Assembly (NCBI GenBank): GCA_000004695.1
Contig: CM000151.3
Location: 6,048,001 to 6,112,000 of the forward strand
From: Dictyostelium discoideum
Taxonomy: Eukaryota
Length of the DNA stretch: 64,000 nt
Direction: 5' to 3'
Made by a program: the position numbers and the translations under genes
Part shown: one piece after another, positions 32,040 to 34,627 of the stretch
Layout of the letters: each line of letters begins with the position of its first letter
Numbering within the stretch: the first letter of the stretch is position 1
Notes under the pieces: generated by a model
The model's database searches: none
What the model was told of the DNA's origin: nothing
What the model saw: the letters and a program-made list of their open reading frames with translations, nothing else

Positions 32040-32307
32040 ATGTTATTCAGTAAGTTTTTCTTTACTTGCTACTTTTTTTTTTTTTTTTTTTTCAAAACAC
32101 AATATTGTAATTTATTTTTTTTTTTTTTTTTTTTTTTTAGAAACTTTAATTTCATCAATTAACAAATCAAATGAATTTTCAAAAATAAATATAAATAATA
32201 GTATTGAAAATATAAACATAGAATTGAATAATCAAATTCATGATAAAACAGTTTCATTAAAAACCAAAAAAGTTTACTTTACAAGACCAAACTTTGTTTC
32301 CTTTTAA
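32040..32307 (+). CDS. Micro-gene copy 1 of a tandem three-member family; join(32040..32049,32141..32307), 58 aa
   Basis: ATGTTATTCA|GTAAGT, 91-nt T-rich intron ending TTTTTTTTAG, then a phase-1 open frame. Product: [58 protein letters not shown]. Not in the ORF track because exon 1 is 10 nt and exon 2 has no Met. Confidence 0.5.
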
Positions 32308-33077
32308 AAAAAAAAAAAAGAAAAAAAAAAAAAAAAAAAAAAAAAAAAACAAATATGTTTATTTCAATATGGAAAAAAAAAAAAAATGTTATCCGATATT
32401 TTAAAAACATTTTTTAAAAAATAAATATTTCATTCCAATACTTTAAAGTTGTTATTTGTTTAACTTTTGATCTATTTTTAGGATTTTTATAAAATGAGGC
32501 TTGTTTTATATTATACCAATGTTTCTAAAATTAGTGTATATAATCAGATTATACATTTTTACATTTATTTTTGAAAGATGGGATATTTTCAATTGATTTA
32601 CTAACTGTTTTAAACAATTTTTTAAATTTAAATTAACAAGATAATATGAGACCCCATTATCAATTCCCAATGAGATTCTATGTGGTTATATAATTTTTAA
32701 AAGTTTTCCGAAAATCAATCACCCCATTTTTTTTAATCCCCTAAATTAATAAAAAAAAATAAAAAAAAATAAAAAAATTATATTTTAAGATCGAGAGTAA
32801 GTGAACAAATACTAAAAATATAACAGTAGACCATCTATTAATTAAAATTTTATTTTAAACTTGGTCAAATATTGTATTTAAAATGTATAACAACATCAAA
32901 AATTAAATAAAATAAATAAAATTTTATTTTTTTAAAATTTTTCAAAATTTTAATAAATAAATTAATTAATATCCGTATAAATAGGTTTTCGAATTTTTTT
33001 CGTTTCATTTCAAAATTATAAATATTTTTTTTTTTTTTTTCAAATATCTAAAACAATAAAAACTATAAAACTTTAAA

Positions 33078-33314
33078 ATGTTATTTAGTATGTATAATAA
33101 TTTCATTTTTTTCTTTTAAAAGAAATAGTTTCTAATAAAAAAAAAAAAAAAAAAAAAAATAGAATCAATAATTTCATTACCATCAAACAATTTAGAATGT
33201 TCATCAAAAATTGAATGTGAAAATAAAACAATTAAAAATTCAGATATTAACACAAAAACATCAATGAGAAGAATAATTTCATTTTTTACCAGACCACACT
33301 TTATAACATATTGA
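33078..33314 (+). CDS. Micro-gene copy 2; join(33078..33087,33163..33314), 53 aa
   Basis: ATGTTATTTA|GTATGT, 75-nt intron ending AAAAATAG, phase 1. Product: MLFKSIISLPSNNLECSSKIECENKTIKNSDINTKTSMRRIISFFTRPHFITY. Confidence 0.5.
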
Positions 33315-33319
33315 AAATA

Positions 33320-33357
<38 letters not shown>

Positions 33358-33484
33358 ATCCGAAAAATAAATATAAATATTCGACAACAAGAAAAAAAAT
33401 AAAAACAATTATAGTTTTTATGTGAAAAAAAAAATAATAATAAAAAAAAAAATAAAAAAAAAAAAAAAGACTTATTTTCTCAAT

Positions 33485-33524
<40 letters not shown>

Positions 33525-34255
33525 TCTTGAGGAACCTTATATTTTATTTTTCAAAATTAGATTTTTCAAAGATTATCAATTCTGAAATTTAACAGTTAAA
33601 AATTACATATATTTAAAGATTAAAATTATAAAATAGACATTCTCCTTAATATATAATTTTTATTATTTTTTACATATTTCTTTCTATATTCTACCACATT
33701 CAAGTATCGAATTCAAACATTAAATTCCTTTTTTAGCAAAACCTTAAAAATGTTACATAAACAATTTTTAAAAAAAAAAAAAAAGAAAAAAAAAAAAAAA
33801 GAAGGGGAATTTACTTTATACAGCTTTAAAAAGTGTAATATTAATTTTGGACCCACCCATAAAATTTTAAATCATTAAATTTCAAAATAATACCATCAAT
33901 TTATTTTTTTTTTTTTTTTTTTTTTTCTCTTCTGTATTTAAAATTAAAAAATATTTTTCACATCAAAAATCCAAAATAATAATTTGATAATTTACTTTTA
34001 ATAGGTTGTTTTTATGAATGATATGGATAAGTATTGATCAATTTTTTTTCCATTTTTAAAATAAAATAAAAAAAAAAAAAATAAAAAAAATAAAAAAAAA
34101 AAACTAACAATTTTTAAATTATATTTTTTATTACCTTATATTTTCATTTATTATTAATATTCGTGTATGTCAACAACAATTGATTACAACATTTTAATAT
34201 TAGATTGAAATAATTATATTTTTATTTTTATTTTCACCCCATTTTAATTTAATAT

Positions 34256-34294
<39 letters not shown>

Positions 34295-34395
34295 ACAAAA
34301 AAAATTGATAAAGGATTTTTTTTTTTTTTTTTTAACTAAAGAATTTAAAAATAAAAAAATAAAAACTATAAGATCAATAATAACAATATAAAAAA

Positions 34396-34627
34396 ATGTT
34401 ATCAAGTATGTTTTTAAAAAAAAAAAAATCTTATCATAAATAAACCCTTGCTAATTTTCTTTTTTTTTTTTTTATATAGAATCAATTATTTCTTTCTCAT
34501 TAAAAATTTCAAATGATAATAATCCAATATCAAATACTATAACTCAAAATGTATCATTTGATAAAAATACAATTTCAATGAGAAGTAAATCAGCTTTCTA
34601 TACAAGACCAAATTTTATAAATTATTA
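34396..34627 (+). CDS. Micro-gene copy 3; join(34396..34405,34480..34627), 52 aa
   Basis: ATGTTATCAA|GTATGT, 74-nt intron ending TTATATAG, phase 1. Product: MLSKSIISFSLKISNDNNPISNTITQNVSFDKNTISMRSKSAFYTRPNFINY. Confidence 0.5.

What the first reader, a model, noticed from the sequence alone, without database searches (positions are those of the whole stretch)
32040..34627. Tandem cluster of three paralogous two-exon micro-genes (52-58 aa) hidden in a gene desert
Three +-strand units at 32040, 33078 and 34396 (spacing ~1.04 and ~1.32 kb) share one architecture. Each has a 10-nt first exon ATGTTAT(T/C)NA, then GTAAGT or GTATGT, a 74-91-nt T-rich intron ending in AG, and a phase-1 second exon of 48-54 codons. 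The products are [58 protein letters not shown]; MLFKSIISLPSNNLECSSKIECENKTIKNSDINTKTSMRRIISFFTRPHFITY; and MLSKSIISFSLKISNDNNPISNTITQNVSFDKNTISMRSKSAFYTRPNFINY. They share an N-terminal ML(F/S)K(S/T)(L/I)IS motif and a C-terminal T.S(L/M)(K/R)...(F/Y)(F/Y)TRP(N/H)F(I/V).(F/Y) motif. An ORF scan cannot see them because exon 1 has only 3 codons and exon 2 has no usable Met. I cannot match them to any family I know with confidence. They lie in an otherwise featureless 4-kb intergenic region, which suggests a lineage-specific, recently duplicated small-protein family.
Basis: seen in the sequence. Interest (0 to 1): 0.7.

Follow-up and report, generated by a model that had tools for sequence, protein, structure and literature searches.

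The report
Three annotated Dictyostelium micro-protein genes
The three tiny two-exon genes are real, but they are already annotated in the Dictyostelium discoideum reference genome as hypothetical proteins, and they belong to an uncharacterised family of about 40 roughly 53-residue proteins found only in D. discoideum and its closest relatives.

Summary
Three +-strand genes share a 10-nt first exon, a GTAAGT or GTATGT donor, a 74-91-nt intron and a phase-1 second exon, and they encode 58, 53 and 52 aa.

They are not hidden. The window is D. discoideum AX4 chromosome 2, and the three proteins are identical to the annotated DDB_G0275639, DDB_G0275477 and DDB_G0275641.

They are not recent duplicates either. 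Protein identity is 35-43% and dS is about 0.7-0.9. Each groups with different relatives elsewhere, and unit 1 has a likely D. firmibasis ortholog.

They belong to a family of about 25 AX4 genes (nearly all on chr2) plus members in D. firmibasis, D. citrinum and D. cf. discoideum. The family has a conserved MLFKSLISLSNK N-terminus, a variable Ser/Asn-rich middle and an invariant C-terminal FFTRPNF[VI]N[YF]. There is no Pfam, PDB or literature match, and AlphaFold predicts disorder.

The closest known kind is the 96-gene sigN / HssA-2C-7E small-protein family. It has the same micro-first-exon, phase-1 architecture and a similar N-terminus, but sequence membership was tested and not met.

Function is unknown. 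My best guess is a disordered micro-protein that acts through its C-terminal motif. Interest is modest.

The parts
32040..32049 (+). Unit 1 (DDB_G0275639) exon 1: ATGTTATTCA, encoding M-L-F plus the first base of K4
   Evidence: The start context is AAAATG. The exact 58-aa product is annotated.
32050..32140 (+). Unit 1 intron, 91 nt, GTAAGT...T-run...AG, phase 1
32141..32307 (+). Unit 1 exon 2 including stop TAA (32305-32307). The product ends in [10 protein letters not shown].
   Evidence: The likely D. firmibasis ortholog is RB653_002531.
33078..33087 (+). Unit 2 (DDB_G0275477) exon 1: ATGTTATTTA
33088..33162 (+). Unit 2 intron, 75 nt, GTATGT...A-run...TAG, phase 1
   Evidence: An alternative in-frame 108-nt intron would delete the conserved SIISL residues, so the 75-nt intron is preferred on homology.
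33163..33314 (+). Unit 2 exon 2 including stop TGA. The product ends in FFTRPHFITY; it is the only one of 30 aligned members with H in place of the near-invariant N.
34396..34405 (+). Unit 3 (DDB_G0275641) exon 1: ATGTTATCAA
34406..34479 (+). Unit 3 intron, 74 nt, GTATGT...T-run...TAG, phase 1
34480..34628 (+). Unit 3 exon 2 including stop TAA. The product ends in FYTRPNFINY.
34234..34259 (+). Composite upstream element of unit 3, TCACCCCATTTTAATTTAATATAATT (-162 to -137 from the ATG). It may be a remnant of an ancestral promoter or a cis-element.
   Evidence: its two halves recur exactly upstream of units 2 and 1.
32719..32730 (+). TCACCCCATTTT, 359 nt upstream of the unit 2 ATG. It is an exact copy of the 5' half of the unit 3 element.
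   Evidence: these are the only two matches in the window, both on the + strand. The statistics are weak: 17 of 100 shuffles give at least 2 matches when 1 mismatch is allowed.
31835..31852 (+). TTTTAATTTAATATAATT, 205 nt upstream of the unit 1 ATG. It is an exact copy of the 3' half of the unit 3 element.
   Evidence: these are the only two exact matches in the window.
32237..32352 (+). Reference copy of the only non-trivial three-copy DNA repeat (also at 33244-33359 and 34558-34673). It spans the codons for the C-terminal motif, the stop codon and the following A-run.
   Evidence: family D12, 68-73% identity.

Best explanation
These are three old, divergent members of a taxonomically restricted Dictyostelium gene family that I call the FFTRPNF family. 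It has about 25 genes in AX4, and all three window members are already annotated as hypothetical proteins. Each gene is its own transcription unit: an A-rich start context, a 10-nt coding first exon, a phase-1 intron of about 75-90 nt, one second exon, and an A-run directly after the stop.

The product is a basic protein of about 53 residues, 46% Ser/Asn/Thr and predicted to be disordered. It has three parts:
1. A conserved N-terminal dodecapeptide, MLFKSLISLSNK.
2. A fast-evolving, indel-prone spacer.
3. An invariant extreme C-terminal aromatic motif, [FY]FTRPNF[VI]N[YF]-COOH.

Shown: the genes are real, protein-coding and under constraint at both termini, and some family members are transcribed and developmentally regulated.

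Inferred: the family arose from the same stock as the sigN / HssA-2C-7E small-protein genes. The evidence is the same micro-exon architecture, an intron at the equivalent position and in the same phase, and a similar M(T)LFxS[IL]xS[IL]SN leader. The family then replaced the Gly/Cys-rich tail with a different C-terminal module.

Inferred mechanism (low confidence): the protein acts as a flexible carrier of its C-terminal motif, which docks onto a partner or co-assembles with it. [quoted passage not shown] The shared N-terminal leader may serve targeting or stability.
For: Gene models and annotation:
- Exact gene models, with identical annotated proteins DDB_G0275639, DDB_G0275477 and DDB_G0275641.

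Family:
- An exhaustive profile search found only full-length relatives of 52-57 aa.
- A second search lists about 25 AX4 members, about 12 in D. firmibasis, and members in D. citrinum and D. cf. discoideum.
- In the 30-sequence alignment M1 and T-R-P-x-F are invariant, and L2, K4, S5, S8, F, N and N are nearly so.

Coding constraint:
- dN/dS is 0.22-0.44 in the termini.
- The reading frame is kept through many indels.
- MLF is conserved even though it is encoded on a separate 10-nt exon.

Expression:
- Paralogs DDB_G0276651 and DDB_G0276707 appear in the differentially-expressed lists of a developmental RNA-seq time course.
- The D. firmibasis models were built from transcript plus homology evidence.

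Disorder:
- AlphaFold gives pTM 0.17 and no secondary structure, but pLDDT 84 over residues 41-50.

Link to sigN:
- Real HssA/B-like proteins start MTLFSSISSISN.
- hhalign aligns residues 2-14 of this family with residues 3-15 of those proteins, which puts the split codon (K4 against S5) at the same position and phase.

SRCP1 analogy.
Against: - No direct transcript, splice-junction or peptide evidence for the three window genes could be reached. They are absent from the supplements I could search, including a life-cycle proteome.
- The sigN/HssA relationship is not statistically supported. hhalign gives probability 1.7% and E = 0.03 over 13 columns. The best PF05710 hit among 30 members is E = 7.5.
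- Composition is very different from sigN/HssA: 0% Gly and 0.9% Cys, against Gly/Cys/Ser-rich.
- The proposed C-terminal docking or co-assembly mechanism rests only on the conservation pattern and on analogy.
- Unit 2 sits on a long branch and has H in place of the near-invariant N, so it may be under relaxed constraint.
Confidence: 0.6

Rival explanations
1. The proteins are precursors of a small secreted or organelle-targeted peptide. The conserved basic, acid-free N-terminus would act as a targeting leader. A frequent Lys/Arg 15 residues from the C-terminus would mark a processing site that releases a peptide of about 14 residues, S-S-T-S-FFTRPNFVNY, which would act as a signal or effector during development.
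For: - 29 of 30 members have no acidic residue and have 1-3 basic residues in the first 14 aa. Net charge is +2 to +5.
- K or R occupies position -15 in 21 of 30 members, directly before the most conserved block.
- The layout of conserved leader, variable spacer and invariant C-terminal core resembles peptide-precursor families.
- For the architecturally similar sigN family, antibodies stained small vesicles and secretion was proposed.
Against: - There is no classical signal peptide: the N-terminal hydrophobic stretch is interrupted by K4, S5 and S8, and mean hydrophobicity is low.
- The K/R at -15 is missing in 9 of 30 members.
- There is no detected peptide and no homology to any known peptide-precursor or processing system.
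- No targeting predictor was available here.
Confidence: 0.15
2. The three window copies are non-functional or decaying relics (or over-annotated ORFs) of a family whose active members lie in the larger chr2 cluster at DDB_G02766xx-02767xx. They would be transcribed weakly or not at all.
For: - None of the three window genes appears in the searchable differential-expression lists or proteome tables, whereas two members of the large cluster do.
- They sit on the longest branches of the family tree.
- Unit 2 carries the only N-to-H change in the motif.
- Whole-gene dN/dS is fairly high, at 0.39-0.67.
Against: - All three keep an intact ATG in an A-rich context, a consensus donor, an acceptor, an open frame, the invariant T-R-P-x-F and a stop at the family's canonical position.
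- dS of 0.7-0.95 means there has been ample time for disabling mutations, yet none is present.
- Unit 1 has an intact counterpart in D. firmibasis.
- dN/dS in the termini is 0.22-0.44.
- Absence from differential-expression lists does not mean absence of expression.
Confidence: 0.15
3. The resemblance is chance similarity in AT-rich DNA, or a gene-prediction artefact, and these are not genes at all.
For: - The very AT-rich, low-complexity DNA makes spurious Asn/Ser/Lys-rich ORFs and spurious DNA alignments common.
- The AX4 models for such small genes may be purely computational.
Against: - Only these three loci in 64 kb fit the micro-exon model.
- The motif occurs exactly three times.
- About 40 full-length relatives in four taxa share the same length, both termini and the stop position, with E-values down to 1e-20.
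- The intervening introns and spacers are not conserved, while the 10-nt exon and the C-terminal codons are.
Confidence: 0.02

Closest known systems
sigN / HssA-2C-7E ('Coiled', Pfam PF05710) small-protein gene family of D. discoideum (Vicente et al. 2008, PMC2257962)
   Same: - Both are small proteins of under 120 aa found only in Dictyostelium and encoded in tandem arrays, many on chromosome 2.
- The gene architecture is the same: a micro first exon holding only a few codons, one short intron and a single second exon. The exon-1 ORF is 13 nt in 89 of 96 sigN genes and 10 nt in three of them.
- The intron is phase 1 and sits at the equivalent aligned codon.
- The N-termini are similar: MTLFSSISSISN against M-LFKSLISLSN.
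- Both are Ser-rich and predicted to be largely unstructured.
- C-rich/G-rich boxes lie in the promoters.
   Different: - There is no significant sequence or profile similarity (hhalign probability 1.7%; no PF05710 hit).
- These proteins are shorter: 52-58 aa against mostly 75-100 aa.
- They have 0% Gly and about 1% Cys, instead of a Gly/Cys-rich tail.
- They carry a unique invariant FFTRPNF[VI]N[YF] C-terminus.
- None of the three window genes matches any entry in the published list of 96 by chromosome, size and intron length.
SRCP1 (serine-rich chaperone protein 1) of D. discoideum
   Same: It is a tiny (about 9 kDa), Ser-rich, Dictyostelium-specific protein with no recognisable domain. Its activity resides in a short C-terminal segment, a 'pseudo-amyloid domain'. 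It belongs to the same large class of small, developmentally regulated proteins as sigN.
   Different: SRCP1 is about 88 aa. Anti-aggregation activity has not been tested for any FFTRPNF protein, and their motif contains a central Arg-Pro that does not fit a simple amyloid strand.
Annotated AX4 gene models DDB_G0275639, DDB_G0275477 and DDB_G0275641 (UniProt Q86IA8, Q86IA7, Q86IA6)
   Same: They are identical in sequence and structure to the three units in the finding.
   Different: Nothing differs. The database entries carry no family, domain or function assignment.

Membership tests
FFTRPNF small-protein family (unnamed; defined here from database hits) | Length of about 52-58 aa with an end-to-end match to the family profile | tested here: met
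   the three window proteins score E = 1e-15 to 1e-25 over their full length. Relatives are 52-57 aa.
FFTRPNF small-protein family (unnamed; defined here from database hits) | An invariant T-R-P-x-F within [FY][FY]TRP[NH]F[VI]x[YF], immediately followed by the stop codon | tested here: met
   present in all three. Unit 2 has H in place of N.
FFTRPNF small-protein family (unnamed; defined here from database hits) | N-terminus M-L-[FS]-K-[ST]-[LI]-I-S, with MLF encoded on a separate 10-nt exon followed by a phase-1 intron | tested here: met
   for the three window genes.
sigN / HssA-2C-7E family (Pfam PF05710 'Coiled') | A significant match to the PF05710 profile or to family members | tested here: not met
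   no hit for the window proteins, and the best hit among 30 family members is E = 7.5; hhalign against five real HssA/B-like proteins gives probability 1.7% and E = 0.03 over 13 N-terminal columns only.
sigN / HssA-2C-7E family (Pfam PF05710 'Coiled') | A two-exon gene with a micro first-exon ORF (13 nt, rarely 10 nt) and a short intron | tested here: met
   One search gives a 10-nt exon 1 and introns of 74-91 nt. The published family has introns of 66-128 nt.
sigN / HssA-2C-7E family (Pfam PF05710 'Coiled') | A Ser/Gly/Cys-rich composition with conserved cysteines | tested here: not met
   Gly 0% and Cys 0.9% across 30 members. Compare P0043-P0047, which are Gly/Cys-rich.
sigN / HssA-2C-7E family (Pfam PF05710 'Coiled') | Developmentally induced, prestalk-enriched expression | not testable with these tools
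   The only information is that two paralogs appear in developmental differential-expression lists. There are no data for the window genes or for cell type.
Classical secreted peptide precursors | An N-terminal signal peptide with an uninterrupted hydrophobic core | tested here: inconclusive
   the N-terminal stretch LFKSLISL is interrupted by K and S, and mean hydrophobicity is 0.17. No dedicated predictor was available.

The most novel reading that the evidence does not exclude
The FFTRPNF proteins form a distinct, undescribed class of Dictyostelium micro-proteins, and their invariant C-terminal decapeptide is the active entity. It could act as a released developmental or defensive peptide, or as an SRCP1-like module that co-assembles with the organism's abundant Asn/Gln-rich, aggregation-prone proteins. 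The shared MLFK/MTLF micro-exon leader would mark a much larger superfamily of more than 120 genes, built by swapping C-terminal modules behind one ancestral first exon.
Probability: 0.12. Interest if true: 0.6.

Novelty: already known. Interest (0 to 1): 0.27.

Why it matters
As gene models, these are already in the reference annotation, so the finding adds nothing to the gene catalogue. The follow-up adds a family-level description that I found in neither Pfam nor the searchable literature. It covers about 40 proteins with a sharply conserved C-terminal motif, restricted to the D. discoideum species complex, with an exon-intron design that ties them to the large and still functionally enigmatic sigN/HssA class.

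If the C-terminal motif proves to be a binding or assembly module, the family would be a compact system for studying how micro-proteins arise and diversify by module replacement. It might also help explain how Dictyostelium manages its very Asn/Gln-rich proteome. A practical point is that ORF-based scans miss these genes, and several database models of relatives have wrong N-termini because the 10-nt exon was missed.

Tried and rejected
- Pfam on the three proteins and on all 30 aligned members: nothing meaningful.
- PDB profile search: no hit at E <= 10.
- Rfam and tRNA scans of 30.5-35.5 kb and of the window: nothing. An RNA-gene reading has no support.
- blastn between the three units of about 1.3 kb: swamped by AT-rich low complexity. 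Anchored MAFFT alignments show little conservation outside exon 1, the C-terminal codons, the A-run and two short upstream words.
- Exact-product look-ups for DNA or transcript contigs of the three genes: not on record. Spliced transcripts therefore could not be checked.
- Full-text searches for 15 gene IDs of this family, for UniProt and RefSeq accessions, and for the peptide motifs: only one incidental mention, a promoter G-quadruplex near DDB_G0276707.
- Supplements of six transcriptome or proteome papers: the window genes were never found. Three of the papers have no held supplements.
- AlphaFold on the 30-sequence alignment: no fold, so no fold search was run.
- Metagenome scan with FTRPNF[VI]N: no relatives.
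- Permissive tblastn of the family against the window: only noise. The strict version shows exactly three loci.
- Identity with the three 10-nt-exon sigN entries (sigN132, sigN183, sigN176) was considered and rejected for the window genes on chromosome, size and intron length.
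Full report
**1. What is there**

The window is extremely AT-rich (14-16% GC across 31-35 kb) and has short GTAAGT...AG introns. Database matches place it on Dictyostelium discoideum AX4 chromosome 2, an 8,484,197-bp record.

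- Unit 1: exon 1 32040-32049, a 91-nt intron, exon 2 32141-32307, 58 aa.
- Unit 2: exon 1 33078-33087, a 75-nt intron, exon 2 33163-33314, 53 aa.
- Unit 3: exon 1 34396-34405, a 74-nt intron, exon 2 34480-34628, 52 aa.

All three ATGs sit in an AAAATG context, each donor is GTAAGT or GTATGT, and the intron splits codon 4 after its first base (phase 1). Spacing is 1038 and 1318 bp.

Chance does not explain this. A scan of both strands of the 64 kb for any micro-first-exon model with an ORF of at least 45 codons finds these three and only a few low-complexity junk models. The C-terminal motif occurs exactly three times in six-frame translation.

**2. They are already annotated**

An exact-sequence look-up finds all three proteins in NCBI and UniProt:
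- DDB_G0275639 (XP_643625.1, Q86IA8)
- DDB_G0275477 (XP_643626.1, Q86IA7)
- DDB_G0275641 (XP_643627.1, Q86IA6)

All are labelled hypothetical or uncharacterized. So 'hidden' and 'gene desert' are wrong. The 4.1-kb interval lies between a gene encoding PDS5 that ends at 30862 (PF20168, E = 3.4e-196) and the next gene, which starts at 34948. It holds three annotated genes.

**3. They belong to a real, conserved family**

An exhaustive HMM search of 1.84 billion representative proteins with the three-sequence profile returned only full-length hits of 52-57 aa. The exceptions were one 101-aa read-through model and one spurious low-complexity hit. A second search with a 15-sequence profile listed 33 clusters.

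Members by taxon:
- About 25 AX4 genes, nearly all on chr2. Most lie in a second cluster, DDB_G02766xx-02767xx, which a published coordinate for DDB_G0276707 places near 7.07 Mb. One gene, DDB_G0282383, is on chr3.
- About 12 D. firmibasis genes.
- Members in D. citrinum, D. cf. discoideum and other D. discoideum strains.
- Nothing outside this species complex, and nothing in environmental contigs.

The 30-sequence alignment shows invariant M1 and T-R-P-x-F, and near-invariant L2, K4, S5, S8, F, N and N. The consensus is MLFKSLISLSNK, then about 25-30 variable Ser/Asn/Thr-rich residues with many indels, then x-[KR]-S-S-T-S-FFTRPNF[VI]N[YF] followed directly by the stop codon.

Several database relatives have aberrant N-termini (MYGSSIDDF..., MEQVLIFQF..., MLITYISFDF...). 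The probable reason is that the predictor missed the 10-nt exon.

**4. Evidence that they code for protein**

- The frame, the length and the stop position are preserved across about 40 loci in four taxa, despite frequent indels.
- The tripeptide MLF is conserved even though it lies on a separate 10-nt exon, and the introns are not alignable.
- Among the three window genes dS is 0.68-0.95. dN/dS is 0.39-0.67 overall and 0.22-0.44 in the conserved termini. These samples are small and near saturation.
- The only three-copy DNA repeat that is not low complexity is the block of C-terminal codons, stop and A-run (family D12).

Direct transcript evidence for the window genes could not be obtained, because product look-ups found no contigs. 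The indirect evidence is as follows:
- Paralogs DDB_G0276651 (five lists) and DDB_G0276707 (one list) are among the differentially expressed genes of a developmental RNA-seq time course. I could not resolve the direction or the time point.
- The D. firmibasis gene set was built by MAKER from Trinity transcripts plus D. discoideum protein homology. I infer that protein homology alone would be unlikely to place a 3-codon exon, so the correct MLFK starts there probably reflect transcripts.
- The window genes are absent from the supplements I could search, including a life-cycle proteome.

**5. They are not recent duplicates**

Protein identity among the three is 35-43% and dS is about 0.7-0.95. 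In a neighbour-joining tree they do not group together:
- Unit 1 pairs with D. firmibasis RB653_002531. The two share ...IHDK[TS]VS[LF]KT...Y[FY]TRPNF[VF]S[FY].
- Unit 3 joins the DDB_G0276699/0276737/0276749 subgroup, at up to 60% identity.
- Unit 2 sits on a long branch.

The tree rests on about 53 columns and is weakly resolved. Even so, the pattern fits old paralogs that predate the D. discoideum-D. firmibasis split.

Short traces of a shared promoter survive. Unit 3 carries TCACCCCATTTTAATTTAATATAATT at 34234-34259. Its first 12 nt recur exactly upstream of unit 2 (32719), and its last 18 nt recur exactly upstream of unit 1 (31835). The few GC islands in the spacer are C-rich or G-rich boxes. 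These observations are suggestive and not statistically strong.

**6. Properties of the protein**

- Composition is S+N+T 46%, F+Y 12%, Gly 0% and Cys 0.9%. Net charge is +2 to +5. There is no acidic residue in the first 14 positions in 29 of 30 members.
- AlphaFold with the 30-sequence alignment gives mean pLDDT 63.7, pTM 0.17 and no secondary structure. Local pLDDT is 84 over residues 41-50, which is the motif.
- There is no Pfam hit and no PDB hit.
- No paper contains the motif or discusses these genes. The one hit is an incidental table entry for a promoter G-quadruplex near DDB_G0276707.

**7. Closest known kind**

Vicente et al. 2008 (PMC2257962) described 96 sigN-related genes encoding proteins of under 120 aa. 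[quoted passage not shown] Their supplementary table lists three members with a 10-nt exon 1. None matches the window genes by chromosome, size and intron length.

I pulled real HssA/B-like proteins (PF05710) from the database, using a bait sequence recalled from memory. They begin MTLFSSISSISNPMTSSKSS, against M-LFKSLISLSNKSSNVSSSKS in this family. hhalign aligns residues 2-14 of the FFTRPNF profile with residues 3-15 of those proteins. This puts the intron-split codon (K4 here, S5 there) at the same aligned position and in the same phase. The match is not significant, however: probability 1.7% and E = 0.03. PF05710 matches no member, and the Gly/Cys-rich composition that characterises sigN/HssA is absent.

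My conclusion is that the architecture is of the same kind and the two families plausibly share ancestry, but formal membership was tested and not met.

For sigN/HssA itself, function remains unclear. Expression is developmental and prestalk, and deleting 13 genes or six individual genes gives no phenotype. [quoted passage not shown]

**8. Most likely mechanism and its rivals**

- Best-supported (confidence 0.6): these are bona fide genes for disordered, basic micro-proteins whose function resides in the invariant free C-terminal aromatic motif, a docking or co-assembly module. The N-terminal leader is inherited from the sigN-type ancestor. Gene reality and constraint are shown; the mode of action is inferred from the conservation pattern and the SRCP1 analogy.
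- Peptide-precursor or targeting reading (about 0.15): supported by the basic, acid-free leader and a frequent K/R at -15. It is weakened by the lack of a classical signal peptide and by nine members that lack the basic residue.
- The window trio are decaying relics (about 0.15): supported by long branches, the absence of expression hits and the N-to-H change in unit 2. It is contradicted by intact starts, splice sites, frames and motifs despite near-saturated dS.
- Chance or annotation artefact (about 0.02): excluded by cross-species conservation.

**9. Verdict**

The claims of being hidden, recently duplicated and family-less are wrong.

As objects, the genes are already known as annotated hypothetical proteins. 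As a family, they are uncharacterised and, as far as I could search, undescribed. They form a variant of the known Dictyostelium micro-exon small-protein theme. A specialist would not be surprised, and the finding does not open a long-standing question, so interest is modest (0.27).

Noticed in passing
window 27164-30862 (+): The large ORF immediately upstream of the cluster encodes a PDS5 sister-chromatid-cohesion protein (PF20168, E = 3.4e-196). This is only the last long exon of the gene.
   Followed up: partly
window 34234-34259, 32719-32730, 31835-31852: Unit 3 has a 26-nt upstream element, TCACCCCATTTTAATTTAATATAATT. Its 5' 12-mer recurs exactly upstream of unit 2, and its 3' 18-mer recurs exactly upstream of unit 1. 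It may be a remnant of an ancestral promoter or a shared cis-element. The statistics are weak in this AT-rich DNA.
   Followed up: partly
window 31897-31909, 32647-32657, 33847-33860: The few GC islands in the 4-kb spacer are C-rich or G-rich boxes: CTGTGGGCG, GAGACCCCAT and GGACCCACCCAT. They resemble the GBF-type G/C boxes reported in sigN promoters, which hints at post-aggregative regulation.
   Followed up: no
window 32306-32350, 33320-33356, 34637-34664: In all three genes the stop codon is followed almost at once by a genomic A-run of 28-45 nt, and long T-runs lie 60-120 nt upstream of each ATG. The introns rule out retrocopies, so this is probably the usual Dictyostelium flank organisation.
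   Followed up: no
window 31607-31655: There is an (ACATA)n / (ATATA)n microsatellite about 400 nt upstream of unit 1.
   Followed up: no
window ~35125-35155: A CA-rich box (cacacacccacacaccactaacactcacc) lies inside the first intron of the downstream gene (ATG at 34948). It is unusual in sequence that is otherwise about 15% GC.
   Followed up: no
Database relatives P0012, P0028, P0033, P0037, P0039, P0009, P0030 (D. discoideum and D. firmibasis): Several annotated family members have aberrant N-termini or C-terminal read-through extensions (62-108 aa). The probable cause is mis-annotation from missing the 10-nt first exon or from a wrong splice. DDB_G0276703 and DDB_G0276751 encode identical proteins, which indicates a local duplication.
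   Followed up: partly
Paralog DDB_G0276707, AX4 chr2 7077389-7077409 (outside the window): A published G-quadruplex-forming sequence, TGGTGGAGGGGGGTGGGTGGT, lies in the promoter of this family member (PMC6511855). It may be the same kind of G-rich promoter box.
   Followed up: no
window 36184-37419 (+): This 411-aa ORF in the downstream gene has long poly-Q and poly-N tracts and no Pfam match. It is a typical Dictyostelium low-complexity protein.
   Followed up: no
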